DNA from: Polyangiaceae bacterium
Lineage (GTDB): Bacteria > Myxococcota_A > Polyangia > Polyangiales > Polyangiaceae
Length of the DNA stretch: 64,000 bases
NCBI GenBank assembly: GCA_036488725.1
Contig: DASXHD010000111.1
Span: 16,760-80,759, forward strand
Direction of reading: 5' to 3'
Part shown: piece by piece, positions 29,686-43,772 of the stretch
Numbering within the stretch: position 1 is the first letter of the stretch
How the letters are laid out: every line of letters starts with the position of its first letter
Made by a program: the position numbers and the translations under genes
Notes under the pieces: generated by a model
What the model saw: the letters and a program-made list of their open reading frames with translations, nothing else
What the model was told of the DNA's origin: nothing
The model's database searches: none

Positions 29686-30855
29686 TCAGCGCGCGACCAA
29701 GCCGACGGCGTGCGTCGGGAGGCCCGCGAAGTCGTCTTTCTTCGTGAGGCTTCCGTCAGCGGCGACCGCGTAGACGCTGAGCGCAGCGGCGGCGCCGTCG
29801 AGCACGTAGAGGTAGTCGCCTTTGCTCGTCGCCGCGACGTCGACCGGGCCCATGCCGGTCGCGCCGGCGTTGCCGTTTCCGTCGAGGCTGAGCGCGCCGC
29901 TCGTCGCGATGGTGTAGCTCGCGACGTCGTTGCTCTTGGCGTTCGCGACGTAGAGATGCGAGCCGGCGACCGCCGCCCAGCACGCCGACGACTGCGACGA
30001 CGCGACGGCGCTGCTCACCGTCGTCACTTCGCCGCTCGCGCCGAGCGAATACGAGCTCGCGGTGCTCGCGCCGTCGGCGCCGCCTTGCGCCTCCGAGACG
30101 ACGAGCTGTCCGCCCGCGCCGAACGCGAAACCGTACGGCGTCGCGCCCGCCGAAGCGTGCGCGTGGACCGCCCCGGCGACGCCGCTCGTCACGACGAACG
30201 TGTCGATTTGATTCGTGCCCTTCTCGGTGACGACGAGGAGCTTGCCGTCGGGCGAGAACGAAATCTGCGCCGGGCCCGGGCTCGCCGCGCTGAGCGCTTG
30301 GCTCGATCCCGCGAGCGGCGCGAGGCCCGCTTCGACGATCGCGAAGCCCGCGATGTTCGCCGGATGCGTGGCGTCGCCCGCGTCGAGCACGTAGACGTAG
30401 TCGCCGTTCACGGTGACGCTGATCGGATCGACGCCGGCCGCGTCGACCTTCGACATCAGCGTGACGTCGCCATCGGCGTGGACCTCGAGCTCCGAAATCG
30501 AGCTATCGCCGGCGTTCACGACGAAGAGCAGATTCTTGTCGGCCGAAAACGCGAGCGCGCCTTGATCGCCGAGGCTCGCGCCGGTTCCGCGTCCGCCGGT
30601 CGAGACGACGTCGCGCGGTGAGAGCGTGCCGTCCGCCGCGCGATCGAAGACGAAGAGCTGGTTCTCGGTCGGGTCGTTCGATTGCGTGTAGACTGCACCC
30701 ATCGGCGCAGCCCCCGCCTCGTAGCCGGGACCTTGCGGACCTTGCGGGCCCGTGTCGCCCGCCGCGCCCGCAGGGCCTTGCGGTCCGGCGGGACCTGCCG
30801 CACCGCTGCACGCGCCGAGGAAAATCGAAATCATCGCGACGAAGCCTGTTCGCAT
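29686..30855 (-). CDS. lipoprotein with collagen-like Gly-X-Y repeat and lactonase-type 7-bladed beta-propeller
   Basis: MRTGFVAMISIFLGACSG lipobox signal. GPAGPQGPAGAAGDTGPQGPQGPG (8 GXY triplets). Then repeated blade motifs (LFVFDRAADGTL, LLFVVNAGDSSISELEV, DYVYVLDAGD, LLVVTEKGTNQIDTFVV, HLYVANAKSNDVASY, DYLYVLDGAAAALSVY) typical of PF10282 lactonase-family propellers. Confidence 0.7.
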   Translation of the reverse strand: MRTGFVAMISIFLGACSGAAGPAGPQGPAGAAGDTGPQGPQGPGYEAGAAPMGAVYTQSNDPTENQLFVFDRAADGTLSPRDVVSTGGRGTGASLGDQGALAFSADKNLLFVVNAGDSSISELEVHADGDVTLMSKVDAAGVDPISVTVNGDYVYVLDAGDATHPANIAGFAIVEAGLAPLAGSSQALSAASPGPAQISFSPDGKLLVVTEKGTNQIDTFVVTSGVAGAVHAHASAGATPYGFAFGAGGQLVVSEAQGGADGASTASSYSLGASGEVTTVSSAVASSQSSACWAAVAGSHLYVANAKSNDVASYTIATSGALSLDGNGNAGATGMGPVDVAATSKGDYLYVLDGAAAALSVYAVAADGSLTKKDDFAGLPTHAVGLVAR

Positions 30856-31016
30856 AAGTACCTCCGTTGTGGTGGTGCGAGTACGCGTCGCAAAAAAATC
30901 CGTTTCGCGTCGATCGAAAAAAGATCGATCCGCGCGCCGTTTCGGCGCGTACGCGCGCCTCCTCTTCGGCGCATCGCGGATTTCCGCGCGGCATGCGCGC
31001 TGCAACGTCACGGCGC

Positions 31017-32984
31017 ATGACCGACACACGCGAGCGCGACATCCTCGTCGCGACCAACGAGTATGCGTACGTCCAAGATCTGACGAAGGGCGACATCGTC
31101 CTTTACGTCGGGCCCACGAAGATCAGCTTGTCGAACACCGAGCGCCTCGTCGATTACCAGCACGGGCGCTTCGTTCCGATTCGCGCCGACGAAGGTCAAG
31201 CCGTCGCGCTCTTCGCGACCGCGACTTCGTCGCAGTACATCGTGCTCGAGAATCCGCCGAAAGATCCCGCGGTCAAACCGACGAAAGGAAACAACAGCGC
31301 GGTGGAGCTCCGCGTCGGGCGCAAGATCGTCGTGCCCGGGCCGGCGACGTTTCCGCTTTGGCCCGGTCAGCGCGCGCGGGTCGTCGACGGGCACGCGCTT
31401 CGCGAGGACGAGTATCTCGTCGTGCGCGTGTACGACGAAGGTCACGCGCAACCGATCGGTACCGAGCTCATCGTGCGCGGCACCGACACGAGCTTTTACG
31501 TTCCCGAGACGGGCCTCGAGGTCGTCCCCGCGTCGGGCGGCAGCTACGTGCGCAAAGCGCGGCGCTTGCGACGCGGAACGGGATTGCATCTTCGCGTCGT
31601 GAAGAGCTTCGTCGCCGGAGCGGCGGAGATTTTTCCCGAGGGTCGCTACGAAGCGGGACAAGACATTTTCATCGCCGACCGCGAAGGGTTCTTCTTTCCG
31701 ACGGCGAGCGTCGAGATCGTCGGCGAGATTTTGGCGATTCCGCTCGGCGAGCGCGAGGGCATCTACGTGCGCGACATCGCGACCGGGCGCATCGCGACGG
31801 CGTCGGGACCGACCAATTTTCTGCCGGATCCGACGCGCGTGGAGATCGTCGCGCGCGCGCTCGACGAAGAACGCGCCGCGCTCTACGGCGTCTCGAAGGA
31901 CCGCAGCCCGACGCGCGCGCTCGCGATTCACGTTCCGTCGAGCTTCGCCGTGCTCGTCACCGCCAAAGACAAACGCGAGGTCGTGCGCGGCCCGCAGACG
32001 CGCGTGCTCGACTACGACGAAGACCTCGAGGTGCTCGAGCTCTCGACCGGGCGCCCGAAGAGCGGCGAAAAAACGCTCCGCACGTGCTTTCTCCAAATCG
32101 AAGGCAACAAAGTCTCCGACGTCGTTCGCTTGAAGACGAGCGACCACAACGAGATCGAGGTCGCCGTCTCGTATCGCGTGTCGTTCGTCGGACCGGACGA
32201 GACGCGCTGGTTCAACGTCGAAGATTACGTCGGGCTCCTCTGCGATCACGCGGGGTCGCTCTTGCGCGGCGCGGCGCGCGCGTCTTCGATCGAAGCGTTT
32301 TATCAAAACAGCACCGAAATTTTGCGAACGGCGATCCTCGGCGAGAAGCGCGAAGGCGAGCCGCGGCCCGGCCGGCACTTCGAGGAAAATGGAATGTGGA
32401 TCTACGACGTCGAAGTGCTCGACGCGCGCATCCTCGATCCCGAGGTGCAGACCCTCCTCTCGGGCGCGCAGAAGGACGCGATCGTCGCCGACGTGACGCG
32501 CCGGCAAGAGCTGCTCGAGCTCGAGACGCAGCGGCTCAAAGAGCAAGTGCGCCGCGCGATTTGCGACGAGCAATCGCAGACGATGGGCGCCGAGGAGACG
32601 CGCGTCGCGAAAAAGCGCGCGGTCGACGTCGCGACGGCCGAAGCCGCGGTCGCGGTGACCTCGGTCGCGGAGGATGCGCGGCTCGCGGCGAGAGAACGCG
32701 AGCACGAGCTCGACAAGAAGATGCTCGACGCGCGCGTCGGCGCGTTCCGCGAGCAGATGGCGGCGCTCGCGCCCGAGCTCGTCGCGACGCTGAAGACGCT
32801 CGGCCACCAAACGCTCGCGGCCGAGCTCGCGAAAAGCGTTTCGCCGCTCGCGATCCTCGGCGGAGAGAGCGTCACCGACGTCGTCGAGCGCCTCCTCGGC
32901 GCGCTGCCGATCGGCGCCGACTCGACCGTCGGAAAGCTGCTCGCGTCGAAAAACGGGAAGGAGCATCGCCTCGAGGAGCGTTAG
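31017..32984 (+). CDS. major vault protein (MVP) homolog (vault repeats + shoulder + cap-helix coiled coil)
   Basis: Direct motif matches to eukaryotic MVP: the N-terminal vault repeat (ours NEYAYVQDLTKGDIVLYVGPTKISLSNTERLV vs human [31 protein letters not shown]); IPLGEREGIYVRDIATGRIATASG vs [31 protein letters not shown] vs LSAGRPK; QNSTEILRTAILG vs KNSARIIRTAVFG; a long C-terminal coiled coil like the MVP cap-helix. 655 aa (human MVP 893 aa); no signal peptide. Confidence 0.8.
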   Translation: MTDTRERDILVATNEYAYVQDLTKGDIVLYVGPTKISLSNTERLVDYQHGRFVPIRADEGQAVALFATATSSQYIVLENPPKDPAVKPTKGNNSAVELRVGRKIVVPGPATFPLWPGQRARVVDGHALREDEYLVVRVYDEGHAQPIGTELIVRGTDTSFYVPETGLEVVPASGGSYVRKARRLRRGTGLHLRVVKSFVAGAAEIFPEGRYEAGQDIFIADREGFFFPTASVEIVGEILAIPLGEREGIYVRDIATGRIATASGPTNFLPDPTRVEIVARALDEERAALYGVSKDRSPTRALAIHVPSSFAVLVTAKDKREVVRGPQTRVLDYDEDLEVLELSTGRPKSGEKTLRTCFLQIEGNKVSDVVRLKTSDHNEIEVAVSYRVSFVGPDETRWFNVEDYVGLLCDHAGSLLRGAARASSIEAFYQNSTEILRTAILGEKREGEPRPGRHFEENGMWIYDVEVLDARILDPEVQTLLSGAQKDAIVADVTRRQELLELETQRLKEQVRRAICDEQSQTMGAEETRVAKKRAVDVATAEAAVAVTSVAEDARLAAREREHELDKKMLDARVGAFREQMAALAPELVATLKTLGHQTLAAELAKSVSPLAILGGESVTDVVERLLGALPIGADSTVGKLLASKNGKEHRLEER

Positions 32985-32994
32985 ACTGAGCGAC

Positions 32995-34503
32995 GTGCCC
33001 AAGACGGTCTTCGCCGCGCTCGCGCTCGCGTTCGCCGCGGTCTTCGCGGCGTGCGGCAAGACTCCGCCGAGCGGTGCCGACGCGGCCGCGCCGATCGCGA
33101 CGACGTCGGCTGCGCCTTTCGTCGTTCCCACCGTGACGTGGGACGCGAAAACGCGCGCCGACGCGATCGCGGCGGGAAAATCGGTGCTCGAAAAAAACGA
33201 GTGCCGCCGCTGCCACGAGATCGACGATCTCCCCGCGCCCGTTCGCCCGAATCACTGCACGAGCTGCCACGAGTTTCTCAAAGGCCTCAAGCCGGGCGAG
33301 AAACAATACGAAGAGATCGCCAAGCGAAATGGCCGCGAGTTCATCGAGCGGTATCAGCGAAACATCGTGCACCTCATCAAGGTGCCGAACCTCACGAACG
33401 TCGGGCGCCGCGTGCGCGCGGATTTCATCGCGAAGTTCTTGAGCGAGCCGTTCGATCAGCGGCCGACGCTCGAAGAGAGCATGATTCGCCATCATCTCTC
33501 GGACGACGACATCAAAGCCGTCGCGCGTTACTTCGCCGCGGTCGCGAGCGCGCCCGATCCCTACGCGGCCGATTACAAAGCGCCCGAACTCGGCAGCCGG
33601 CCCGAACAGACGCGCATCGACAAAGGCAAGCAGCTCTTCTTGTCGCGCGGGTGCACGGCGTGTCACACGTTCGGCAACCTCGACACCGGCGTGCCGCGCG
33701 CCGCGCTCGAGGGCGCGCGCGCGACCAACGAGCTCGCGCCGAACCTCCGCTTCGCGAAAGAGCGCACGCGACCGGACGTGATCGTCGCGTGGATTCAAAA
33801 CGCCGCGCAGATCACACCGGGCACGGTGATGCCGCCGAGCGGCATGACGCGCGAAGAAGCCGAGCTCGTGCGCGATTTTCTCTTCTTCGGCGATCCCGAG
33901 CTCCACCCCGCGCCCGCGACGTACGCCGTCGTGCCGCCGAAGCTTCTCGACCGCGAAGTGCCCTACGAAGAAATGAAGTCGCGCACGCTCGGGAAAGTTT
34001 GCGTTCACTGCCACATGAACGACTACGAAAAAGACACCGGGCCCGGAAACAAAGGCGGCTTCGGTTATCACGGCATCGGCCTCGCGATGCGCACGTACGA
34101 AGCGCTCGTGAACGGCGCGGTCGGCGCGGACGGCAAACGCTATTCGGTTTTGATCGCGAAGAAGGGCGAGTCGATGCCGCCGCTCGTCGCCGCGATGGTC
34201 CAGCGCCGCGTCGAGGAGCAGCGCGACCACGTGCCCGCGTTCGAGGACTACGAGCGCCCCGATTATCCGAAGTCGCCGCCGGCGATTTTGGGAATGCCGA
34301 TGGGCTTGCCGTCGATGACCGACGAAGAGATCTCGATCTTGGCGACGTGGATCGCGCAAGGATGCAAAGGCCCGACGAAAGTGTGGGGTCACCCGGGAAT
34401 GAACGACGGCCTCCTCGTGCAGGACGGCCCGCTGAAGAAAAACCAGGGCTGCGAGCAGCGATCGCCCGAGCACCCGCGCCCGACGTGGGCGTACGACCAG
34501 TAG
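32995..34503 (+). CDS. tetraheme c-type cytochrome lipoprotein
   Basis: GTG start 10 nt after the MVP stop. (M)PKTVFAALALAFAAVFAACG lipobox. Four CxxCH heme-binding motifs (CRRCH, CTSCH, CTACH, CVHCH). Confidence 0.75.
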   Translation: MPKTVFAALALAFAAVFAACGKTPPSGADAAAPIATTSAAPFVVPTVTWDAKTRADAIAAGKSVLEKNECRRCHEIDDLPAPVRPNHCTSCHEFLKGLKPGEKQYEEIAKRNGREFIERYQRNIVHLIKVPNLTNVGRRVRADFIAKFLSEPFDQRPTLEESMIRHHLSDDDIKAVARYFAAVASAPDPYAADYKAPELGSRPEQTRIDKGKQLFLSRGCTACHTFGNLDTGVPRAALEGARATNELAPNLRFAKERTRPDVIVAWIQNAAQITPGTVMPPSGMTREEAELVRDFLFFGDPELHPAPATYAVVPPKLLDREVPYEEMKSRTLGKVCVHCHMNDYEKDTGPGNKGGFGYHGIGLAMRTYEALVNGAVGADGKRYSVLIAKKGESMPPLVAAMVQRRVEEQRDHVPAFEDYERPDYPKSPPAILGMPMGLPSMTDEEISILATWIAQGCKGPTKVWGHPGMNDGLLVQDGPLKKNQGCEQRSPEHPRPTWAYDQ

Positions 34504-34529
34504 CGAAGCCCGCTCCACCCGGCGACGCG

Positions 34530-34697
34530 CCTTCTCGACTTGGTGGCGAGCCTTCTCGACTTGGTGGCGAGCCTTCTCGACTCGGTGGCGAGCCTTCTCG
34601 ACTTGCTGGCGGGCCTTCGCGACTTGCCGGCGGGCGTTCGCGACTTGCTGGCGGGCGTTCGCGACTGGGTGGCGGCACTTCTCGACGGCACGACGAC
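34530..34697. repeat. tandem array of ~7.5 copies of a 21-bp repeat (GCCTTCTCGACTTGGTGGCGA consensus)
   Basis: Seen directly: units at 34530, 34551, 34572, 34593, 34614, 34635, 34656 with progressive point divergence (cttctc to cttcgc to gttcgc; ttggtggcga to ttgctggcgg), plus a degenerate last unit. It lies in the convergent intergenic region between the cytochrome gene and the gene ending at 34741. Confidence 0.85.
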
Positions 34698-34740
34698 ACG
34701 TGGCTTCGTCGCCGCGCCCGGCTCCGAGTCCGCGTCCTCG

Positions 34741-35310
34741 TCACCGCTTCGGAAAGCGGCCGTCGTCCTCACGCAGCTTGCCGGTCGCGCGCCTCTCGGC
34801 GAGCTGCTGCACCCGCGCGGGTGAAACGTAAAACCGCGCGAATTCGTGCGCGGGGAGCGGCCAGCCGCCGGTGCCGTGCTCGACGTCGTCGAAGCACGCG
34901 CGCGCGAACTCGACGTGGAACGCGCTCTCGGCGATCGACAGACATTTCTCGGCGAGCGCGTTCGCGTCTTGGTCGGCGCGCGTTTGTGCGACGAAGCTCG
35001 CGGCGAAGCGAAAGCCGGCGACGTCGAGCGCCATGCGGTACGCGTTGCGAAGCCCGCCGAACGCGTTCGCGCGCGCGAGCTTCACGCGCGCCTTCACCTC
35101 GGCGCTCGGCGGCGGAAGCGGCAGCGGGCGCTCGACGACGTCGTAGTCTTCCCAGCCGGCGCGCCGCAGCTTCTTCGAATACGACGCGAGGTCCGATTCG
35201 ACGCGCTCGATCTTCGCGTCGATGCTCCCATCGCTGCGCACGAAGAGCGCGCCGTCATGTTCGGCGATCCAACGAAAGCGGCCGCCCTTGTAGAGCCGCG
35301 TCCACTTCAC
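34741..35310 (-). CDS. hypothetical cytoplasmic protein
   Basis: GTG at 35310 overlaps the upstream lipoprotein stop (GTGA). 189 aa with coherent composition (VKWTRLYKGGRFRWIAEHDGALFVRSDG...). The R-rich 5' part of ORF 34741..36123 is rejected. Confidence 0.5.
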   Translation of the reverse strand: MKWTRLYKGGRFRWIAEHDGALFVRSDGSIDAKIERVESDLASYSKKLRRAGWEDYDVVERPLPLPPPSAEVKARVKLARANAFGGLRNAYRMALDVAGFRFAASFVAQTRADQDANALAEKCLSIAESAFHVEFARACFDDVEHGTGGWPLPAHEFARFYVSPARVQQLAERRATGKLREDDGRFPKR

Positions 35311-36203
35311 GGCGTCGTCCACGTCGCCGGCAAGTCGAGACGTTGCCCGATCGGATCGTCGAGCTGGGGCAGACGAACCAGATACGCGAGCGCGACCGAA
35401 TTCGGGCTCGCTTGCTCGAGATAAATGATCGCGAGCGAAATCGTCTGCGTGCTCGGCTCCCAAAAGAGCGAGTGGAGCTCGAACCAACCGGGCGACGCGC
35501 ACGTCGTGCAATCGATCACGTTGAAGGGATAGAGCGTCCACGACGTGCTCGCAAAGGTCGCGGTGCCGGGGTTCGCGCCGTCGAAGGCGATCGACGGCCC
35601 GCTGATGGTGAACCCGGAGACGACCTTCGGCGGCGGGATCGACATCGCCGGAAGCGACACGCTCTCGTCGGTCGACTGCGTCACCGAGCTGCAGGTCCCC
35701 TTCGCCGGCAGCTCGGCGGTCGAGGCGATGCCGTCGGTGCTCTCGTAATAGACGAACGCGAGATTGGTATCGTTCGCGCAGGTGATCCACGCGAGGACGG
35801 CGCGGTCCGGCGTCATGCCGACGATTTCGAAATCGCGCTCGCCGGTGAACGCTCCGCCGTCGCCGGTGCCGGGCGGCGTCGAGGTGCTCGTGTAGAAAAA
35901 CGCGGGCGTCGTCTCGCCGTGGAATTGGATCGTGCCGACGCCGTGCGTGATCGCGATCGCGCCGAGCTCGGCCGCGCCGGTGCCGTCGAACGAAACGTCC
36001 TCGGCGACGGTCCACGTGGCTTGCGTCGCGGGCACGTCGATCGTCGTGCTCGCGTCCGGCGCGCCCAGCGCGTCGGTGGACGCGTCGCCGGCGTCGGTCG
36101 TCGTGTCGTCGGCGGACGAGCACGCCGCGAGCGCGAGCAGCGCGAACGCGAGCGCCGTCCGTGCTCGCGACGTCCCGCCTGCGGCGGATCCGTCGACTTT
36201 CAC
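35307..36203 (-). CDS. hypothetical lipoprotein (Thr/Ser-rich)
   Basis: GTG 36203 overlaps the OPT transporter stop (GTGA). ARTALAFALLALAACSS lipobox. The rest of ORF 35307..37196 upstream is R-rich junk antisense/out of frame to the OPT gene. Confidence 0.55.
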   Translation of the reverse strand: MKVDGSAAGGTSRARTALAFALLALAACSSADDTTTDAGDASTDALGAPDASTTIDVPATQATWTVAEDVSFDGTGAAELGAIAITHGVGTIQFHGETTPAFFYTSTSTPPGTGDGGAFTGERDFEIVGMTPDRAVLAWITCANDTNLAFVYYESTDGIASTAELPAKGTCSSVTQSTDESVSLPAMSIPPPKVVSGFTISGPSIAFDGANPGTATFASTSWTLYPFNVIDCTTCASPGWFELHSLFWEPSTQTISLAIIYLEQASPNSVALAYLVRLPQLDDPIGQRLDLPATWTTP

Positions 36204-38164
36204 TGCAAATACCCGCCGGCGCTGAGCAGCGCGACGGCGACGCCCAGCAAGCTCTCGCCCGCGATGATGCCCGACGCGACCGGCGTGATGTAACGCTCGC
36301 CGTGCTCCGGCTTGTACTTCACCCAGAGGTACGCGATGAGCGCGCCGAGAAACATCGACACCGAGTTGAAGCACGGGATGACGAGCGCGAGCCCGAGCCC
36401 GGTCGCGCTCGGCATCCACTGTTTGTATTTCGGGAACGCGAGCTCGAGCAGCGGCAAAATGATTCCGATGAGCCCGCCGATGACGATGCCCCAGCGCGCC
36501 CACGGGTGCAGCGACTCGACGCCGTGGGCGAGGAGCTCGGCGACGCCCTTCCACACTTGCGCGCTCGGAGCCGGAAAGCGATCGGTGCCGAGCGCGTCGG
36601 GCGTCGGCACGAGCGTGTAGAATGCAGGCACCGAAACGAGCGTGCCGACGAGCGTGCCGGAGAGCTGCGCGAGGAACTGCTGGCGCGGGTTTGCGCCGAG
36701 CAAGTAACCGCTCTTCAAATCGTTGAGCAGGTCGGCCGACGCGCCCGCGGCGCCGGCGGTGACGCTCGCGGTCATGAGGTTCGTCGTGACGTTCGTCGGC
36801 GCGAGGACGCCGTACGTGAGCTGCGTGATTTTGCCCATGGCGCCGACCGGCGTGATGTCGGTCTCGCCGGTCGCGCGGCACGCGACGATCGCGAGCATGA
36901 ACGCCATCACGACCGAGATGACGCCGAGGAACGGCGAGATGTGAAACGCCTTGTACCCGATGATGACCAAACCGATCGTCGCGGCGCCCGTGCCGATGAC
37001 GAACCACGACGACGGCACTTCGATCTTCTCGAGCTCGCCGCGCGCTTTCTCGATCGGGTCTTGCGATTGCGCGTCGTGATGCTCGGCGCTCTTCTTGAGC
37101 AGCTTGCCGATGCCCGAGAACGCGCGCAGCACGGTGCGCCACTGCAAACCGAACGTGAGCAGGCCCGACGTCACCATGATTGCGGCGCCCGGCCACAAGC
37201 TGAACGCGACGATGTTGCGGTAACCGAGGATCGCCTCGCCGTTCTTCATCTGCGTGTGAATGACGCCGTGATCGAGCAGGATCGGCGCGAGGACGCCGAA
37301 GTTGATGAGCGCGCCGACGAGCATGCTGATCGTCGTGCGCAGCCCCATCAGCATGCCGGCGCCGACCATGATGAGCGAGCCCTCGAACGAAATCGTGTAC
37401 TGGAGCAGCGGCAAGCCGCGGATCTTGATGCCGGGGATCGGGATCAGGTCGGGGATCTTCGAGAGCTTGGTGAGCGCGCCGAGGATTGGGTGCGTGGGCG
37501 CGCCGTGCGCGTCACGGAGCCACGCGACGATCGCGCCGAGGCCCATCATCGCGAAGAGCGAGCGCGCCTTCTTCACCGCTTCGCTTCCAGAGCCGTAGAG
37601 CGATTTCAGCGTCTCGGCGGCCGCGGTGCCCGAGGGAAAACGAAGCTTCTCGATGTTGATGATCTGCCGCTTCATCGGGATCGCCATCACCGTGCCGAGC
37701 ACGGTCATGAGCAAAATCCACCCCATGAGCACGCCCATCGGCAGGTGACGTCCCGTCACGAGCAGAAGCGCCGAGATCGCCGAGACGAGAATGATGGTGC
37801 CGGCCGACGCGCTCGATGCCGTCGACTGCATCGCGTTGTTCTCGAGCATCGACAGGTTCGCGCCGAAGAGCCGCGGCGCGATGCGCGAGAGCGTCGAGTA
37901 GACGGCGTACGAAAGAATGCACGCGGTGATCGCGACGCCGAGACCCCAACCGGTCTTGAGGCCGACGTACAAATTCGACAAACACATGACGGCGCCGATG
38001 ACGCTGCCGACGATGAACGAGCGCAGCGTGAACTGGCGAACGTTTCCGCGGTAGACGTTTTGGAACCACTCGACCTCGGGATCGATCGGCGTTTGATCCG
38101 GCGGCGCGTTCGCGCGGTACGGCTTTTTTTCCGGGTTTTCGCCTTCGGGCTGAGTGGCGGCCAT
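36200..38164 (-). CDS. OPT-family oligopeptide transporter
   Basis: 654 aa polytopic membrane protein with OPT superfamily architecture (about 16 predicted TM segments, characteristic N-terminal NVYRGNVRQFTLRSFIVGSVIGAVMCLSNLYVGLKTGW region). ATG 38164. Confidence 0.8.
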   Translation of the reverse strand: MAATQPEGENPEKKPYRANAPPDQTPIDPEVEWFQNVYRGNVRQFTLRSFIVGSVIGAVMCLSNLYVGLKTGWGLGVAITACILSYAVYSTLSRIAPRLFGANLSMLENNAMQSTASSASAGTIILVSAISALLLVTGRHLPMGVLMGWILLMTVLGTVMAIPMKRQIINIEKLRFPSGTAAAETLKSLYGSGSEAVKKARSLFAMMGLGAIVAWLRDAHGAPTHPILGALTKLSKIPDLIPIPGIKIRGLPLLQYTISFEGSLIMVGAGMLMGLRTTISMLVGALINFGVLAPILLDHGVIHTQMKNGEAILGYRNIVAFSLWPGAAIMVTSGLLTFGLQWRTVLRAFSGIGKLLKKSAEHHDAQSQDPIEKARGELEKIEVPSSWFVIGTGAATIGLVIIGYKAFHISPFLGVISVVMAFMLAIVACRATGETDITPVGAMGKITQLTYGVLAPTNVTTNLMTASVTAGAAGASADLLNDLKSGYLLGANPRQQFLAQLSGTLVGTLVSVPAFYTLVPTPDALGTDRFPAPSAQVWKGVAELLAHGVESLHPWARWGIVIGGLIGIILPLLELAFPKYKQWMPSATGLGLALVIPCFNSVSMFLGALIAYLWVKYKPEHGERYITPVASGIIAGESLLGVAVALLSAGGYLQ

Positions 38165-38183
38165 GGGCCTCCCTCCTATCACC

Positions 38184-41100
38184 TCAGCGGCTTTGCACGC
38201 ACCGAAATGCTTGCCGCGCCCGGTCGATGTAGAGCGACGCGGACACGACGGGCTCGTCGACGTGACCGAGCTTGCCGGCGCTCGGCGCGTCGGCGTAGCC
38301 GTTGAGCGACAGCTTTTCCAAGCACATCGCGGTCGGCGTCACGTGGTAGCGCGCGAACATTCCGCTGCCGGAGTAACCGTTGAGCTGCGCGCCCGACGCG
38401 CCGAGCACGGTGATGGCCGCGCCGGGCCAGCGCCCGTCGACGACCCAGCCGCCGTCTTGCGCGCCGCAGACGCGGACCGCTTTGCCGCTTCCGTCGGACG
38501 CGCCGAGACGCTCCGGATCGCCGAGCGCGCCGGAGTCGACGTCGATCGGAAGCGCCCACGCTTGGCTCCTCCAGCGCGAGGGACGCGCCGCCCCTTCGGT
38601 GATCGGCGCGCCGATCACGATCGCACCGAGCATGCGTCCGTCGGCGCGACGCGCGAGCCGAAGCGCCGGCGCGCGAACGCCTGCCTCCTGGCCGACGCGC
38701 GGAATGCGAACGACGTCGCGCGCGACGCCCGAATCGAGCTCGGACACGAGCGTCGCGTTGCCGTCGGTCGTCGCGAGATACCAGCGCCCGCCCATGCGCA
38801 CCGCCGACTCGAGCTCGCCGAGCGCTTGCCCGCCTTCGCGTCGCACCTCGAGCGCCGGACGATCGGCTTCGACGTCGACGAGGATCGTCTCCGGCCCGCT
38901 GCCGCTCGGCGAATACACGTAGCGCTGAACGATCATGAGCGCGTGGCTCGCGTCGTCGCCCGGCACCATCGACACGTATTGAATCGGGTGCGTCGGGTAG
39001 CCGCCGAGGCCGACGAAGTTGGTCGAGTCGGCGATGAACTGCGGGATGGTAGTGCCTTGCGTCGCGTGGAGCACGTTCGACGCGTCGAACGGCGACGTGA
39101 AGCGCACGACGAAACGTCCGTGGCTGTCCCAATCCATGCCCTTCGGGCCCCACGCGTAAAGTCGCGCGAGCGCCGAGAGCGTGAAGTGCCCCGAGTTGCC
39201 GCTGTCGGTGCCGCTTCGATCGTAAATCTCGTCGACGCGTCGGCTGAACCCGAGATCGTCGGTGCCGAGCTTCGGCGCGCTCATCGCGAAGAACGGCTGC
39301 CAGTCGATCGTCTGCGGCGTCCGGTTGTAGCCGTAGCCGTAACCGTAGCCGTATGGATAACCGTAGCGTCCGTAGCGGTAGCCGGAGGTCTGCGTCGCGC
39401 TCGTGTCTTCGCTCGGCGGCGCGAGCTTGCCCGACGCTTCGCACTTCAAGTGGAGGGTCGTCGGCGAGGGCACGTCGAAGGTGCGCGGCGTCTGCGCGTT
39501 CACGTCGTTCGCGGCGTGCGGCGGGGGCTCGCCCCAGCCGACGCGAATCCATCCGGCGAGGACGCAGCCGAGTGGACCGCAGCCGTGCATCGCCGCGCCC
39601 GCGGCAGGTCCCGCCACTTCGAGCGGCTCGGGCAGCGCGAGCGGCTTCCACGTCATGCCGCCGTCGATCGTCTCGTAACCTTGGCGCGACGCGGTCCAGC
39701 CGAGGCCCCATCGGCCCGAGACCATCGCGGTGCCGAGGTCGACGACGAACGGCCCGTGCTTCACTGCGCCCGCGAGGCTGATTTCGAGCCCGATGTAGCG
39801 GCCCGAGTGCGCGACCCACGCCGAGAGCGTGCCGGGCGTGCGCTCTTCGATGCCTTGCATCCACGTGCCCGAGCGGAGCACCGCGGCGACGCGCGACTCG
39901 TCGTCGACGTCCGGCGTCGTGTCGTCGGCCTCGTCGTCCTCGTCGGGTTTCGCTTTCGCGGGCTTCGCTTGCGCGCTCGCGAACGTGAGCGGGATCGTCT
40001 TCGGTTTCGCGCCGTCGAAAATCGTGAGTCGCCCCGTCGAAAGATCGCCGACCGGCGGCGAGACGATCGCGGTGCGCCCGTCGGCGAGCGGCACGACGCG
40101 CTCGGTGCCGACGTCGCCGTTCACGACGAAGTCTTCGAACTTCCGATTCGCGCGCATGATGCAGTAGCCCTGCTCGGTCTTCTTGATGTCGACCGGCGTC
40201 GCGTCCGGATCGCACACGCCCTCCACGACGAGCGTGCCGTTGCTCGGCGAGAAGACCGCGCGCGGCTCGTCGAAGTGACGAAGCAGCACGAGCTTGCCCG
40301 CCGGGTCGTACGCGTAAATCTCGGTCGCGCCGTGCGGCACGCCGCAGACGAAACCGAACGCGCCCGCCGATTTCATCGGCGAGAGCGAGACCGCGTGACA
40401 GCGCGCGGGCTTCAGCGGAAACGCGTCGGGCGCCGTGTCGAGCACGGTGCCGTCCGACATGCGCACGCGTGAGAGCGCGCCGTCGCGCGCGACGAGCGCG
40501 GTGCCGCCCGCGAGCGGCCAGCCTTCGAGCACGGCCGATGCGAGCGGGTTTTTCGCGGTCGCGCGCGCGGTGTCCTCGGGCTCCGGCGCCGGCTCCGCGT
40601 GCTTCTTCGTCGTGGTCTCTTGGAGCCGCGCGATTTGTCCGTTCGGTTGCACCGCGTACGACTGCGACTCGCCGTCGGCGTCGACGCCGGTCACGACGAT
40701 GGCATCGCCGGAGAGCTCGAGGTTCTTGGGCTCGATCAGAATCGGCAGCGTCTGCCATCGATTGCCCGCGTCGAACGTCGCGACGACGCCGCGCAAATCG
40801 GCGATGGCCGCGGCGCGCCAACCATCGGCGGCGACGTAATGGCTCACTTGCGGGCTCCCCGGCCACGGCCCGAGGTCCATCGGATCGCCCGTCCGCGGAT
40901 CGAACGCGACATACGCCGCGTTCGAGAGCCGCAGATACGCGCGATCGAGACCGATGAAGAGCTGCGTCGGCGAGACCGGCGCGGCGTAGAGCATCTCGAG
41001 CGGCGCGAGCCAGCTCGCCGCGCGATAAACCGTCGGCCCGATCACGAACAAGAAGCCGCCGCCGAGCCGCTCCGGAATTTCGACGGTCGTCGCCGGCGGC

Positions 41101-41375
41101 GCGGGCAGCGCGTCGCTCGCGCTCTCGACCCCGCCGCCCGCGAGCTTGATGACACGCACGCCCGCGACGAGCAGACGCGTGCCGCAGCCGGGCTCGACGC
41201 CGTACGGCTTTCCCTCGTCGGCCGCGCGAAGCGGGACGAGATGCGCCGGGGTGAGCGTCGGGTCGGCGACCGTCGCGGCTCCCGCGCGCAGCGCCGCGCG
41301 GCTCGCGTCCTCCGCCGGCAGCGACGGACCGCATGCGGCGACGAACGCGAGCACGGCGATCCACCGGACTTTCAC
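38184..41375 (-). CDS. large secreted/lipoprotein (hypothetical, ~1060 aa)
   Basis: N-terminal VKVRWIAVLAFVAACG signal plus lipobox. Contains a YGRYGYPYGYGYGYGY Gly/Tyr-rich low-complexity motif. No recognisable enzymatic motif. Exact start (GTG 41375 or 41369, or ATG 41411) uncertain. Confidence 0.6.
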   Translation of the reverse strand: MKVRWIAVLAFVAACGPSLPAEDASRAALRAGAATVADPTLTPAHLVPLRAADEGKPYGVEPGCGTRLLVAGVRVIKLAGGGVESASDALPAPPATTVEIPERLGGGFLFVIGPTVYRAASWLAPLEMLYAAPVSPTQLFIGLDRAYLRLSNAAYVAFDPRTGDPMDLGPWPGSPQVSHYVAADGWRAAAIADLRGVVATFDAGNRWQTLPILIEPKNLELSGDAIVVTGVDADGESQSYAVQPNGQIARLQETTTKKHAEPAPEPEDTARATAKNPLASAVLEGWPLAGGTALVARDGALSRVRMSDGTVLDTAPDAFPLKPARCHAVSLSPMKSAGAFGFVCGVPHGATEIYAYDPAGKLVLLRHFDEPRAVFSPSNGTLVVEGVCDPDATPVDIKKTEQGYCIMRANRKFEDFVVNGDVGTERVVPLADGRTAIVSPPVGDLSTGRLTIFDGAKPKTIPLTFASAQAKPAKAKPDEDDEADDTTPDVDDESRVAAVLRSGTWMQGIEERTPGTLSAWVAHSGRYIGLEISLAGAVKHGPFVVDLGTAMVSGRWGLGWTASRQGYETIDGGMTWKPLALPEPLEVAGPAAGAAMHGCGPLGCVLAGWIRVGWGEPPPHAANDVNAQTPRTFDVPSPTTLHLKCEASGKLAPPSEDTSATQTSGYRYGRYGYPYGYGYGYGYNRTPQTIDWQPFFAMSAPKLGTDDLGFSRRVDEIYDRSGTDSGNSGHFTLSALARLYAWGPKGMDWDSHGRFVVRFTSPFDASNVLHATQGTTIPQFIADSTNFVGLGGYPTHPIQYVSMVPGDDASHALMIVQRYVYSPSGSGPETILVDVEADRPALEVRREGGQALGELESAVRMGGRWYLATTDGNATLVSELDSGVARDVVRIPRVGQEAGVRAPALRLARRADGRMLGAIVIGAPITEGAARPSRWRSQAWALPIDVDSGALGDPERLGASDGSGKAVRVCGAQDGGWVVDGRWPGAAITVLGASGAQLNGYSGSGMFARYHVTPTAMCLEKLSLNGYADAPSAGKLGHVDEPVVSASLYIDRARQAFRCVQSR

Positions 41376-41452
41376 GCGCCCCAGCGTAGCCTGCCTGCGT
41401 GCGGGTGACATCGCACCTTAAACGCGCGGCGCGCCGCTTCGATTTGACGGGC

Positions 41453-42061
41453 TCACGGCGAGAGACGCGCGATCTTCCAGAGCGCGCCGTCTTTTTCGTA
41501 GACGATCCGATCGTGGAGCCGGTGCTCGCGGCCTTGCCAAAACTCGAAGCGGTCGGCCGTCACGCGAAAACCGCCCCAGAACGGCGGCACCGGCACCTCG
41601 CGGCCCGCGTATTCGCGCTCGAGCTCGACCACACGCTGCTCGAGGCCGGCGCGCGTCGTGATGATCTCGCTCTGCGCCGACGCCCACGCGCCGATCTGCG
41701 ACTCGCGCGCGCGCGTCCGAAAATAATCGGCCGACTCTTCGCGCGTCGTCCGACCGACGACCCCCTCGATGCGGATCTGCCGCTGGAGCGTCGGCCAGAA
41801 AAAGAGCAGCGCGACGCGCCGGTTGTGCTCGAGCTCCTGGGCCTTGCGGCTTCCGTAGTTCGTGAAAAAAACGAACCCGTCCTCGCCGTGCCCCTTGAGG
41901 AGCACCATCCTCGAGCTCGGCGCGCCGGTCGCGCTCACGCTCGCGACGGCCATCGCGTTCGGCTCGGGTACGGCCGCGGCTTTCGCGTCGTCGAACCAAA
42001 GCCTGAACTGCGCGTGCGGGTCCGGGTTCGCCGTCTCTTCGGTCAGCACCGACTGAAGCAT
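41453..42061 (-). CDS. pdxH: pyridoxamine 5'-phosphate oxidase
   Basis: PdxH motifs (FRLWFDDA, MVLLKG..DGFVFFTNYGSRKAQEL, RVALLFFWP, RQIRIEGV, ADYFRTRARESQIGAWASAQS, FWGGFRV, EFWQGREHRLHDR). ATG 42061; the upstream 69 codons are rejected. Confidence 0.85.
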   Translation of the reverse strand: MLQSVLTEETANPDPHAQFRLWFDDAKAAAVPEPNAMAVASVSATGAPSSRMVLLKGHGEDGFVFFTNYGSRKAQELEHNRRVALLFFWPTLQRQIRIEGVVGRTTREESADYFRTRARESQIGAWASAQSEIITTRAGLEQRVVELEREYAGREVPVPPFWGGFRVTADRFEFWQGREHRLHDRIVYEKDGALWKIARLSP

Positions 42062-42194
42062 TCGGTCGGGTTTTAGCACGCCGCGGAGCAAGGAAAGGGC
42101 TGTGACGAAAAGCGACTCGGTGCTTACATTTTCGGCCAGACAGCCGTTTGCCTGAACATGTGGGTGACCGCTCCAGGAACGACGGGGTTCCACG

Positions 42195-43772
42195 ATGCCT
42201 AGCCCAAAACTCGACGACGCACGCAGCAGCACCAAGCCTCCGGCCTCGGGGCCCGTGGCGCTGCCCATCCAAGACGGCGATCGCCTCCGTGTTCTCGACC
42301 ACGTCGAAGGCGGAATCGCAGTCGTACAAGCCGACGGATTTCTCTACGCGAACGAGCCGCTCTTGCGAATGCTCGGCTACGCGTCGCTCGAAACGATCGC
42401 GACGCATCGCGTGAGCGCCGTCGCGGGCGCAGCGAGCTACGACGCGTGGGTCGACTCGCACGCCGGTGACGGGCGCACCGAGTCGTGGCGGCGTTCGGAC
42501 GGAAGCGTCGCGCGGGTCGACGTTTCGGTGCGTCCGATGAAAGTCGGCGACGTGGACGTGAGCGTCGTGCTCGTTCGCGACGCGAGCGCGGCGTGGCGCG
42601 CGCAAGCGCAGCTGCAACAAACCGAGCGCCTCGCGGCGGTCGGTACGCTTGCCGCCGGCGTCGCGCACCAGCTGAACAATCCGCTCGCGTACGTCATCGC
42701 GAACATCAATTACCTCGCCGAGGAGATCCCGGCGTTCTTGCAGCAAGTCGCGCCGACGCTCGGCAAACCGGAGCAAGAGCGGCTCGCCGAGCTCCTCAGC
42801 GCGATGAGCGACGCGCGCGAAGGCGCCGAGCGCGTCGCGCGAATCGTCCGGGACCTGCGCACGTTTTCGCGCATGGAAGACGAGCGACGCGATCTGCTCG
42901 ACGTGCTCTCGCTCCTCGAGTCGGCGTGCGTGCTCGTCGAGAGCGAGCTCAAGAACCGCGGACGGCTCGTGAAAATTTTCGACGCGCTGCCGCCGGTCGA
43001 AGCGAACCCGTCGCGGCTCGCGCAAGCGTTCTTGAATCTCCTGCTCAACGCCGCGCAGGCGATCCCCGAAGGCGCGCCGTCGCGCAACGAAGTCACAGTG
43101 CGCGCCTTCCAAGACCCGAGCGACGGCATGGTCGTCATCGAGGTGCGCGACAGCGGCGTCGGCATGTCGGCGGCAGTGCAAGCGCGCATCTTCGATCCGT
43201 TCTACACGCTCAAGCCGGTCGGCGAGGGCACGGGGCTCGGTCTCACGACGTGCCTCGCGATCGTCCACGCGATGGGCGGCGGCATCACGGTCGAAAGCGC
43301 GGAAGGCCGCGGCACGACGTTTCGCGTGCGCTTGCCTCCGGCGACGCGCTCGGCGCGGCGCGCGACCACGACTGCGCCGCCCGCGAGCACGGTGCGCCAG
43401 CGAATCCTCATCGTGGACGACGAGCTCACGCTTCTTTCGTCGCTTCGGCGCGCGCTCGGACGCGAGATCGACGTGGTCCTCGCGAGCTCGGCGAACGAGG
43501 CGCTTCTGGTCCTCGAACAGGACAATCGCTTCGACGTCGTGCTTTGCGATATCATGATGCCCGAGGTGACCGGCATCGAGCTCTTCGAACGTGTTTCCGC
43601 GGCGCATCCCGAGCTGCGCGATCGCTTCATCTTCATGACGGGCGGCGCGTTCTCGGCGAGCACGCGAGAGTTCGTCGACTCGACGGACTTGCCGCGCCTC
43701 GAGAAGCCGTTCGACGTGCGCGAGCTGCGGCGGCTGCTGCACCGCCGCGCCAAGGCAGATTCCGGCCGGTGA
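42195..43772 (+). CDS. hybrid sensor histidine kinase / response regulator (PAS-HisKA-HATPase-REC)
   Basis: PAS-like N-terminus, H-box (AAGVAHQLNNPLAYV), N/G boxes (LLLNAAQA, DSGVGM, GTGLGL), C-terminal receiver (ILIVDDE...DVVLCDIMMP...K). Confidence 0.85.
   Translation: MPSPKLDDARSSTKPPASGPVALPIQDGDRLRVLDHVEGGIAVVQADGFLYANEPLLRMLGYASLETIATHRVSAVAGAASYDAWVDSHAGDGRTESWRRSDGSVARVDVSVRPMKVGDVDVSVVLVRDASAAWRAQAQLQQTERLAAVGTLAAGVAHQLNNPLAYVIANINYLAEEIPAFLQQVAPTLGKPEQERLAELLSAMSDAREGAERVARIVRDLRTFSRMEDERRDLLDVLSLLESACVLVESELKNRGRLVKIFDALPPVEANPSRLAQAFLNLLLNAAQAIPEGAPSRNEVTVRAFQDPSDGMVVIEVRDSGVGMSAAVQARIFDPFYTLKPVGEGTGLGLTTCLAIVHAMGGGITVESAEGRGTTFRVRLPPATRSARRATTTAPPASTVRQRILIVDDELTLLSSLRRALGREIDVVLASSANEALLVLEQDNRFDVVLCDIMMPEVTGIELFERVSAAHPELRDRFIFMTGGAFSASTREFVDSTDLPRLEKPFDVRELRRLLHRRAKADSGR

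What the first reader, a model, noticed from the sequence alone, without database searches (positions are those of the whole stretch)
29686..34697. Bacterial major vault protein homolog in an operon with a tetraheme cytochrome c lipoprotein
The 655-aa product of 31017-32984 matches eukaryotic MVP along its whole length: the N-terminal vault repeat (Y.YV.D...G.I.L.VGP......N.ER), the shoulder block (IPL.E.EGIYV.D..TG....A.G; LS.GRPK), the ..NS..I.RTA..G block, and a cap-helix-like coiled coil. Vault particles are a hallmark of eukaryotes, and bacterial MVP genes are rare and essentially uncharacterised. Here the gene is followed 10 nt later by a lipoprotein with four CxxCH heme sites, which is an unprecedented partner for a vault protein. 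It is preceded divergently by a collagen-GXY/beta-propeller lipoprotein, and the operon ends in a 21-bp tandem repeat array. MVP has no signal peptide whereas the cytochrome is exported, so the two are unlikely to be cargo and shell. This is more consistent with a bacterial vault-like cytoplasmic cage with a conditional or redox-linked function. The promoter region (30890-31005) has an A6/A7 tract, three clustered GATC sites (tcGATCgaaaaaaGATCGATC) and a GCGCATGCGC palindrome 10-25 nt before the start.
Basis: partly seen in the sequence, partly recalled or inferred. Interest (0 to 1): 0.9.

Follow-up and report, generated by a model that had tools for sequence, protein, structure and literature searches.

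The report
Bacterial vault-protein homolog, cytochrome neighbour incidental
The gene is a genuine bacterial relative of the eukaryotic major vault protein, one of a large and already reported myxobacterial family, and its cytochrome c neighbour is a recent accident of gene order rather than a partner; the new detail is a control region conserved across the phylum in front of the gene.

Summary
Window 31017-32984 (+) encodes a 655-aa major vault protein (MVP) homolog. Pfam gives MVP_shoulder at 3e-27 and Vault_3/Vault_4 above cut-off. Human and rat MVP in the PDB match at 1.6e-29 (1e-50 with a profile), and the AlphaFold model hits solved vaults at 8e-33.

It is a short form: about six beta repeats (eukaryotes have nine), an SPFH-like shoulder, a 117-residue cap helix and a conserved C-terminal segment. 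It has no signal peptide or membrane segment.

The family is neither rare nor new. There are 523 clusters at 50% identity below 1e-30, mostly in Myxococcota, and two preprints (2019, 2023) describe bacterial MVPs.

The tetraheme cytochrome c lipoprotein 10 nt downstream is real. It follows MVP only in the window's own clade (MVP identity at least 77%) and in none of about 50 more distant loci. In an outgroup genome it keeps the same downstream OPT-transporter block while MVP lies 6.4 Mb away.

Not noted in the papers I read: 43 of 54 high-GC MVP loci (almost all binned as Myxococcota) carry a sigma-54 -24/-12 promoter, often leaderless. An NtrC-like palindrome (GCTCC-N5-GGAGC) lies 45-90 bp upstream.

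Verdict: a new member of a known, uncharacterised kind. The redox-linked operon idea is not supported.

The parts
31017..32984 (+). Short-form bacterial major vault protein homolog, 655 aa. About six beta repeats span residues 1-362, the shoulder 363-474, the cap helix 475-591 and a conserved C-terminal segment 592-634.
   Evidence: Pfam MVP_shoulder, Vault_3 and Vault_4. PDB MVP at 1.6e-29, and 1.1e-50 with a profile. AF2 model with pLDDT 74.9 and Foldseek top hits to solved vaults at 7.6e-33. The start at 31017 is supported by the homolog alignment (M1 at least 90% conserved) and by the promoter lying upstream of it.
30990..31004 (+). Sigma-54-type -24/-12 promoter element, GGCATGCGCGCTGCA (GG at 30990-30991, GC at 31002-31003). 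The predicted transcription start is near 31015, which would give a leaderless mRNA.
   Evidence: The element is invariant in a 5-locus upstream alignment. A match of at least 9/12 to the consensus occurs in 43 of 54 high-GC MVP loci, against 1.4% of 13018 control windows. The -12 C to ATG distance is 14 nt in 16 loci.
30934..30948 (.). Palindromic upstream activator-type site, GCGCCGTTTCGGCGC (family consensus GCTCC-N5-GGAGC), 55 nt upstream of the -24 GG.
   Evidence: It was found by de novo EM motif search. At least 12 bits in 31 of 43 loci against 0.9% of controls. Two-fold cross-validation rediscovers it. It is the only sigma-54 motif plus strong-site pair in the 64-kb window.
32995..34503 (+). 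Tetraheme c-type cytochrome lipoprotein, 502 aa. It is a neighbour, probably co-transcribed in this clade, and not a conserved partner.
   Evidence: Four CxxCH motifs and the lipobox Cys, all conserved. Pfam Cytochrom_C 1.2e-16. Context in other genomes. Foldseek finds only single class-I cytochrome c domains.
29686..30855 (-). Divergent lipoprotein with a short collagen-like GXY run and a lactonase-type 7-bladed beta-propeller. It is a neighbour only.
   Evidence: Pfam Lactonase 1.3e-19. The N-terminal sequence is shown. It lies upstream of MVP only in the window and L001.
34529..34686 (.). 21-bp tandem repeat, 7.5 copies, in the 237-nt gap between the convergent cytochrome gene and a 193-aa gene. 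It is specific to this contig.
   Evidence: TRF score 202. Absent from L001 and all other loci. Not structured as RNA, z = +1.6.
30890..30930 (.). A7 tract and three GATC sites in the divergent intergenic region.
   Evidence: Present. Shared only with L001 and not with L002, L065 or L062.

Best explanation
Window 31017-32984 encodes a cytoplasmic member of the major vault protein family, in a short form that is widespread in Myxococcota.

Architecture (shown by profile, structure and alignment results): about six stacked beta-sheet vault repeats, an SPFH-like shoulder, one long cap helix and a conserved C-terminal cap-ring-like segment.

Mechanism (inferred): the protein probably self-assembles side by side through the shoulder and cap helix into a ring-closed dome or vault-like cage. 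The two most conserved parts, the first repeat and the C-terminal segment, would form the open rim and the apex.

Regulation (shown as sequence conservation; inferred as function): the gene is not constitutive. It sits behind a sigma-54 (-24/-12) promoter with an NtrC-like palindromic activator site 55 bp upstream of the -24 element. This module is conserved upstream of MVP homologs across Myxococcota, so the cage would be made on the command of a dedicated enhancer-binding protein.

The cytochrome: the tetraheme cytochrome c lipoprotein 10 nt downstream is probably co-transcribed in this clade. The adjacency arose once, recently, when the FG-GAP / methyltransferase / MVP block came to lie next to an older cytochrome-OPT transporter block. 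It is not a functional shell-cargo or redox module.
For: Family identity:
- Pfam, PDB sequence and PDB fold matches all place it in MVP.
- The AF2 model shows six five-strand repeats, the shoulder, a helix at 475-591 and C-terminal helices.
- It is collinear with a 920-aa bacterial long form at both ends: query 2-145 aligns to 4-148 and query 301-632 to 513-896. The missing length is therefore internal repeats.
- No membrane segment is present; the maximum Kyte-Doolittle 19-residue score is 1.55.

Conservation in 40 homologs: repeat 1 86%, C-terminal 592-634 76%, shoulder 73%, middle of the cap helix 35%.

Regulation:
- The sigma-54 element is present in 43 of 54 loci against 1.4% of controls.
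- The spacing to the ATG is fixed at 14 nt in many loci.
- The palindrome was found de novo, cross-validated, and sits at offsets about one helical turn apart.

Cytochrome not a partner:
- It is adjacent only in the window, L001, L002 and L048.
- It is absent next to MVP at 71% and 69% identity.
- In the L049/L058 genome it sits next to the same OPT / ~1060-aa protein / PNPOx / kinase block, 6.4 Mb from MVP.
- In L059/L060 it is instead coupled, with a 4-nt overlap, to a GMC oxidoreductase.
- Apart from scattered Ser/Thr kinases, the most widely shared neighbour family occurs in only 7 of about 55 MVP loci.
Against: - No oligomer was modelled or observed, so cage formation rests on homology and conservation alone.
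- With six repeats instead of nine, and with PF01505 not matching, the geometry could differ greatly from a vault.
- The promoter and activator site are sequence predictions without transcript data. The loci are phylogenetically related, so the counts overstate the number of independent observations, although flanking sequence is unalignable between clades.
- A 10-nt gap kept in at least four genomes, and probably several metagenome contigs, means co-expression with the cytochrome is real in this clade. A lineage-specific functional link cannot be excluded.
Confidence: 0.7

Rival explanations
1. One reading: MVP and the tetraheme cytochrome lipoprotein form a functional operon, a bacterial vault-like cage with a redox-linked role.
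For: The two genes are on the same strand with a 10-nt gap. No sigma-70-like or sigma-54-like promoter is detected before the cytochrome gene. The adjacency is kept in L001, L002 and L048. Matching contig lengths for several metagenome MVP and cytochrome hits suggest more linked pairs within the clade.
Against: The adjacency is confined to one shallow clade that also shares the whole surrounding gene order, so it counts as a single evolutionary event. It is absent at 71%, 69%, 65% and lower MVP identity. In an outgroup genome the cytochrome keeps its OPT-side neighbours and is 6.4 Mb from MVP. In another it is coupled to a GMC oxidoreductase. The two proteins are in different compartments.
Confidence: 0.07
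2. The protein is an ordinary SPFH/band-7 (HflC-like) membrane-microdomain scaffold that was mislabelled as MVP.
For: JGI names many homologs 'regulator of protease activity HflC (stomatin/prohibitin superfamily)'. The shoulder plus helix region matches HflK/C, flotillin, prohibitin and stomatin cages by Foldseek at 1e-7 to 1e-5.
Against: There is no Pfam Band_7 hit at E<=10, while MVP_shoulder scores 95 bits. MVP structures score 25 orders of magnitude better. About 360 N-terminal residues are vault-type beta repeats, where SPFH proteins have a membrane anchor, and no hydrophobic segment is present.
Confidence: 0.05
3. The gene is a recent transfer from a eukaryote, or eukaryotic contamination of the assembly.
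For: MVP is best known from eukaryotes, and identity to human MVP is only about 21% over the fold alignment.
Against: The contig has 65-74% G+C throughout and carries bacterial genes on both sides. Hundreds of bacterial homologs exist, including in Candidatus Uhrbacteria. A bacterial sigma-54 promoter is conserved in front of the gene. Bacterial long forms are much closer (300-500 bits) than human MVP (106 bits).
Confidence: 0.02

Closest known systems
Eukaryotic major vault protein (rat/human MVP; vault particle, e.g. PDB 4v60, 9bw5)
   Same: It shares the shoulder domain, the vault-type beta repeats, the long cap helix and a collinear C-terminal segment. The IPLxExEGIYVxD, LSxGRPK and NSxxIxRTA blocks are shared.
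   Different: It has 655 aa and about six repeats, against about 860-890 aa and nine. Its cap helix is about 117 residues, against about 155 (from my knowledge of the rat structure). Pfam PF01505 does not match. No vault RNA is present in the window. vPARP and TEP1 were not looked for. It is driven by a bacterial sigma-54 promoter. Assembly state is unknown.
Bacterial MVP homologs already reported (Enhygromyxa, Corallococcus, Melittangium, Saprospira, Microscilla, Moorea; Sokolskyi 2019, 10.1101/872010; Santos et al. 2023, 10.1101/2023.11.10.566534)
   Same: It belongs to the same family and the same phylum (Myxococcales are named in both preprints). The proteins are uncharacterised and were studied in silico only.
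   Different: This is a short form (about 650-720 aa), whereas the reported bacterial mean is about 822 aa. Neither the conserved sigma-54/UAS module nor the gene-neighbourhood survey appears in the parts of those two preprints that I read.
SPFH cage formers (HflK/C, flotillin, prohibitin, stomatin)
   Same: The shoulder has an SPFH-like fold and is followed by a long helix that, in those proteins, bundles to close a dome (Foldseek 1e-7 to 1e-5).
   Different: There is no Band_7 profile match and no membrane anchor. The N-terminus is a stack of vault repeats.
NtrC-type enhancer-binding-protein / sigma-54 promoters
   Same: It has the GG-N10-GC core with the TGGCAC / TTGCA flavour. It also has a palindrome with 5-bp arms and a 5-bp spacer, resembling the enteric NtrC site TGCACC-N5-GGTGCA (my knowledge), placed upstream at helically phased distances.
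   Different: The arm consensus is GCTCC/GGAGC. The activator is unidentified. In about half of the loci the predicted transcript is leaderless.

Membership tests
Major vault protein (MVP) family | MVP shoulder domain (Pfam PF11978) | tested here: met
   It scores 95.4 bits against a cut-off of 25 (E 3.2e-27) over residues 364-474, covering profile positions 3-118 of 118.
Major vault protein (MVP) family | Vault-type beta-sheet repeat domains N-terminal to the shoulder | tested here: met
   Vault_3 scores 32.9 bits (cut-off 28.8) and Vault_4 23.3 bits (cut-off 22.9). Vault_2 is below threshold at 0.017. The AF2 model shows six five-strand repeats. Foldseek matches the mouse R1-R7 crystal structures at 4e-12.
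   There is no hit even at E<=10, either on the whole protein or on single repeats.
Major vault protein (MVP) family | Long cap helix after the shoulder, and a cap-ring segment | tested here: met
   A single helix spans residues 475-591 in the model. The profile alignment extends to MVP residue 772. The C-terminal segment 592-634 is 76% conserved and collinear with long bacterial forms. Its match to the human C-terminus alone is not significant (domain 2).
Major vault protein (MVP) family | Nine repeats and about 860-900 aa, as in vault-forming eukaryotic MVPs | tested here: not met
   The protein has 655 aa and about six repeats. Internal repeats are missing relative to a 920-aa bacterial form.
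Vault particle | Assembly into a closed barrel of two 39-mer halves | not testable with these tools
   Only monomer prediction was available.
Vault particle | Associated vault RNA, vPARP and TEP1 | tested here: not met
   No Rfam family, including vault RNA, reaches its gathering score in the 64-kb window. Neighbouring genes within +/-10 kb carry no PARP or TROVE domains. This was not tested genome-wide.
SPFH / band-7 | Band_7 (PF01145) profile match and an N-terminal membrane anchor | tested here: not met
   There is no Band_7 hit at E<=10. The maximum 19-residue hydropathy is 1.55, in a beta region.
Sigma-54-dependent promoter | GG and GC dinucleotides 10 nt apart within TGGCAC-N5-TTGCA, upstream of the start codon | tested here: met
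   The window has GGCATGCGCGCTGCA at 30990-31004. The element is conserved in 43 of 54 loci against 1.4% of controls. In the single window the pattern alone is not above chance, with 4 matches against 1.9 expected.
Sigma-54-dependent promoter | Transcription requires RpoN and an enhancer-binding protein | not testable with these tools
   No transcript data are available. The conserved upstream palindrome is indirect support.
MVP-cytochrome operon as a functional system | Adjacency conserved across divergent lineages | tested here: not met
   It is found only in the window, L001, L002 and L048. It is absent from every more distant locus that has downstream sequence.
Multiheme c-type cytochrome lipoprotein | CxxCH haem-binding motifs and a lipobox cysteine | tested here: met
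   There are four CxxCH motifs, invariant in 20 homologs, and Cys20 is at least 90% conserved.

The most novel reading that the evidence does not exclude
Myxococcota short-form MVPs assemble into genuine vault-like or half-vault cages in the bacterial cytoplasm. Their synthesis would be switched on by one dedicated NtrC-type activator through the conserved GCTCC-N5-GGAGC / sigma-54 module. That would give vault biology a genetically tractable prokaryotic model and a defined inducing signal. A still bolder add-on is that, in this clade, the cage is functionally tied to the co-transcribed periplasmic tetraheme cytochrome. I put that add-on at about 0.05.
Probability: 0.35. Interest if true: 0.65.

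Novelty: new member of a known kind. Interest (0 to 1): 0.33.

Why it matters
Vault function is still unknown after nearly 40 years, and no bacterial MVP has been studied experimentally. This window adds no new kind of system. Its MVP gene is one of hundreds in Myxococcota, and the cytochrome pairing that made it look special is incidental.

What is useful is a lead that applies to the whole family. The gene is a stand-alone unit whose only conserved companion is a cis-regulatory module, an NtrC-like palindrome plus a sigma-54 promoter that is often leaderless. That predicts on-demand expression. It also gives a concrete handle, namely finding the activator and its signal, for asking what a vault-like cage is for in a tractable bacterium.

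Tried and rejected
1. Lactonase as a conserved divergent partner. My single-linkage clustering joined it to neighbours in L006, L017 and L049. Direct BLASTP showed those are unrelated expansin-like DPBB proteins. The lactonase is upstream only in the window and L001.
Look-up and tblastn found no cytochrome on either contig.
3. N-terminal 146 residues searched alone against the PDB. No MVP hit, only chance matches.
4. Pfam on single repeats. PF01505 never matched.
5. Defence-system and phage libraries (PADLOC, PHROGs). No hit for MVP or its neighbours.
6. Rfam and tRNA scans of the window. Nothing was found, so there is no vault RNA candidate.
7. The tandem repeat as a terminator or structured RNA. 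The fold is weaker than that of shuffled sequence.
8. Fold search of the cytochrome model. Only single class-I cytochrome c domains matched, at E>0.04, so no specific enzyme family could be assigned.
9. A family-wide conserved neighbour gene. The only cluster shared by many loci (19) is made of Ser/Thr kinases at scattered positions.
10. The GATC cluster and A-tract as a regulatory signature. They are shared only with L001.

Full report
**What is there**

The window is 65-74% G+C throughout. It is identical to part of a JGI metagenome contig, 3300036792 Ga0376663_0000141, 87.8 kb. The ORF at 31017-32984 (+) encodes 655 aa.

Profile searches place it in the major vault protein family.
- Pfam gives MVP_shoulder at 95.4 bits (E 3.2e-27, residues 364-474), Vault_3 at 7e-8 and Vault_4 at 7.4e-5, each above its curated cut-off.
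- phmmer against all PDB sequences returns only major vault proteins. The best is human MVP at 1.6e-29, with query 147-575 aligned to MVP 296-747.
- A profile built from 40 homologs raises this to 1.1e-50, with query 147-590 aligned to MVP 291-772.

**Architecture**

An AlphaFold2 model built on the 40-sequence alignment has mean pLDDT 74.9. It shows:
- six consecutive five-strand beta units, at about residues 14-57, 64-125, 130-185, 186-228, 230-280 and 281-360;
- an alpha/beta shoulder up to residue 474;
- one uninterrupted helix at 475-591;
- short C-terminal helices.

Foldseek against the PDB ranks twelve solved vault structures first, at E from 7.6e-33 to 6e-26. The mouse R1-R7 fragment follows at about 1e-11. 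Only then come the SPFH cage formers HflK/C, flotillin, prohibitin and stomatin, at 1e-7 to 1e-5.

The protein is therefore an MVP and not a generic band-7 protein. There is no Band_7 match even at E<=10, and no hydrophobic segment.

It is a short form, and two qualifications apply to 'matches along its whole length'.
- Residues 1-146 searched alone find no MVP in the PDB.
- The classical Vault model PF01505 does not hit.

That the N-terminus is nevertheless homologous follows from collinearity with a 920-aa bacterial long form. Query 2-145 aligns to 4-148 at 46% identity, query 147-290 to 231-421 with large gaps, and query 301-632 to 513-896. The missing length is therefore internal repeats.

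Within the family the most conserved segments are repeat 1 (86% identity to the query across 40 sequences) and the C-terminal 592-634 (76%). The middle of the cap helix is the least conserved, at 35%. By analogy with eukaryotic vaults these would be the rim (waist) and the apex of a dome. This step is inference, because no oligomer could be modelled.

**How common and how new**

The word-indexed search found 707 proteins at E<1e-5 among the capped candidate set. The best 120 were 53-100% identical over nearly the full length. Those that carry a taxon name are mostly Myxococcota.

The exhaustive search of cluster representatives found 1144 clusters at 50% identity below 1e-3, and 523 below 1e-30. 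Most are 800-950 aa, and one of them is from Candidatus Uhrbacteria.

One scan of species-representative genomes returned 57 loci, nearly all from Myxococcota MAGs. These include Polyangiaceae, Labilithrix, Haliangium, Archangium, Myxococcaceae and Kofleriaceae.

Bacterial MVP homologs, explicitly including Myxococcales, are described in two preprints: 10.1101/872010 and 10.1101/2023.11.10.566534. I found no experimental study of a bacterial MVP. The gene is thus a new member of a known but uncharacterised kind, and it is not rare.

**The cytochrome**

The downstream gene, 32995-34503, starts 10 nt after the MVP stop. Its product has a lipoprotein signal with Cys20 and four CxxCH motifs at residues 70, 88, 220 and 336. 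All of these are conserved in 20 homologs down to 50% identity.

It belongs to a family of about 500-aa cytochromes; the few members that carry a taxon name are mostly Polyangiales/Polyangiaceae or other Myxococcota. Its model (pLDDT 79) matches only single class-I cytochrome c domains in the PDB, at E>0.04, so a specific enzymatic role cannot be assigned.

**Is the pairing conserved?**

No. tblastn of the window's proteins against all fetched loci finds the cytochrome downstream of MVP only in L001 (MVP 85% identical), L002 (79%) and L048 (77%). These three also share the flanking FG-GAP, methyltransferase and OPT genes, so this is one inherited arrangement.

The cytochrome is absent from every other locus that has downstream sequence. 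It is also absent from two additional contigs at 71% and 69% MVP identity.

The outgroup genome is decisive. On contig CAWAIF010000003.1 the MVP gene lies near 6.79 Mb (L049), and the cytochrome (67% identical) lies at 0.38 Mb. There the cytochrome is followed, convergently, by OPT, a 1058-aa protein, PNPOx and a hybrid histidine kinase. That is the same block that follows it in the window.

In a Polyangiaceae genome the cytochrome instead overlaps a GMC oxidoreductase gene by 4 nt. So the cytochrome's older linkage is to its other side, and MVP arrived next to it recently.

Apart from scattered Ser/Thr kinases, the most widely shared neighbour family is found in only 7 of about 55 MVP loci. 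An apparent lactonase cluster turned out to be a clustering artefact.

Co-transcription in the window's clade remains plausible. The gap is short, and no sigma-70-like or sigma-54-like site precedes the cytochrome gene. The evidence does not support a shell-cargo or redox module.

**What the 'palindrome' really is**

The decamer GCGCATGCGC does not exist in the window. Aligning the upstream regions of five loci with different upstream genes showed an invariant GGCA-N-G-N-G-N-TGCAA just before the ATG. In the window this is GGCATGCGCGCTGCA at 30990-30004+1000 (that is, 30990-31004), with GG and GC separated by exactly 10 nt. That is the sigma-54 -24/-12 signature; the consensus TGGCACG-N4-TTGCA is established knowledge.

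Comparative evidence for the promoter:
- Requiring GG and GC plus at least 9 of 12 consensus positions, 43 of 54 high-GC MVP loci have such a site within 120 nt upstream. Only 1.4% of 13018 control windows from the same loci do.
- The loci that lack it are mostly those binned outside Myxococcota or of low G+C.
- In the single window the loose pattern is not above chance, with 4 matches against 1.9 expected. The evidence is comparative, not local.
- In 16 loci the -12 C is exactly 14 nt from the A of the ATG, and in about 22 it is 12-15 nt away. That predicts a transcript starting about 2 nt before the start codon, i.e. a leaderless mRNA.
- The remaining loci have 18-54-nt leaders, several with a GGAG.

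This also settles the start codon at 31017. JGI's 705-aa call and the 663-aa call would both begin upstream of, or inside, the promoter.

**An activator site**

An unsupervised EM motif search on the 120 nt upstream of the -24 element converged on a palindrome, GCTCCG-nnn-CGGnGC. In the window it is GCGCCGTTTCGGCGC at 30934-30948.
- The sites sit at offsets clustering near -46, -56, -67, -78 and -88 from the -24 GG, roughly one helical turn apart.
- Sites of at least 12 bits occur in 31 of 43 loci, against 0.9% of 10828 control windows.
- Training on one half of the loci (split by promoter subtype) rediscovers the same palindrome. It scores at least 10 bits in 17 of 23 and 15 of 20 held-out loci, against about 2% of controls.
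- In the 64-kb window only the MVP gene combines a sigma-54 motif with a strong site.

The 5-5-5 geometry, and variants such as GCACC-N5-GGTGC, resemble the NtrC site (my knowledge, not tested).

**Other features**

- The divergent upstream gene is, as described, a lipoprotein with a short collagen-like run and a lactonase-type propeller. It neighbours MVP only here and in L001.
- The 21-bp array at 34529-34686 lies between convergent genes. It occurs in no other locus and is not structured as RNA.
- No Rfam family, tRNA, defence-system or phage family match was found.

**Conclusion**

The features that made the locus look exceptional, namely rarity and the cytochrome partner, do not hold.

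The best-supported picture is a stand-alone, cytoplasmic, short-form MVP that probably forms a vault-like dome or cage. It is expressed on demand from a conserved EBP/sigma-54 module. In this one clade the transcript happens to run on into a periplasmic cytochrome gene.

Noticed in passing
window 30934-31004 and the regions upstream of MVP in L001-L065: A conserved NtrC-like palindrome (GCTCC-N5-GGAGC) and a sigma-54 -24/-12 element lie upstream of MVP homologs across Myxococcota. In about half of the loci the ATG is exactly 14 nt after the -12 C, which predicts a leaderless, sigma-54-dependent mRNA.
   Followed up: yes
L059 8001-11164 and L060 4140-7303: In a Polyangiaceae genome the same tetraheme cytochrome family overlaps a GMC-family FAD oxidoreductase gene by 4 nt. 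This suggests that the cytochrome's usual role is as electron acceptor for a periplasmic or membrane dehydrogenase.
   Followed up: partly
window 32995-43772 compared with L058 8001-17406: A block of cytochrome, OPT oligopeptide transporter, a ~1060-aa protein with no Pfam hit, PNPOx-like protein and a hybrid histidine kinase is conserved with an outgroup genome. The window has two extra small genes (193 aa and 298 aa, 34741-36203, minus strand) inserted between the cytochrome and OPT.
   Followed up: partly
window 34529-34686: A 21-bp minisatellite (GCCTTCTCGACTTGGTGGCGA, 7.5 copies, drifting towards GGCGTTCGCGACTTGCTGGCG) sits in a convergent intergenic gap. It is unique to this contig and is not structured. 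Its origin is unknown.
   Followed up: partly
L006 7091-8050, L017 4913-6073, L064 1232-1990, L049 12581-13414: An expansin-like (DPBB) secreted protein lies divergently upstream of the MVP homolog in three Labilithrix-type loci, and 2.5 kb downstream in a fourth. This is probably local inherited synteny.
   Followed up: partly
P0251 and its cluster members: Long-form MVP homologs (854-872 aa) are present in Candidatus Uhrbacteria (CPR/Patescibacteria). These are very small cells in which a vault-sized cage would be remarkable.
   Followed up: no
window 30867-31016: The JGI gene call for the MVP homolog (705 aa, TTG at 30867) and another source's 663-aa call (ATG at 30993) both start upstream of, or within, the conserved promoter. 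Homolog alignment supports ATG at 31017.
   Followed up: yes
window 44916-44931 (minus strand): This is the only other place in the window where a weak sigma-54-like site (TGGGACGCGATTCGCG) has a moderately scoring (10.6 bits) copy of the palindrome, 43 nt upstream. It probably lies inside a coding region.
   Followed up: no
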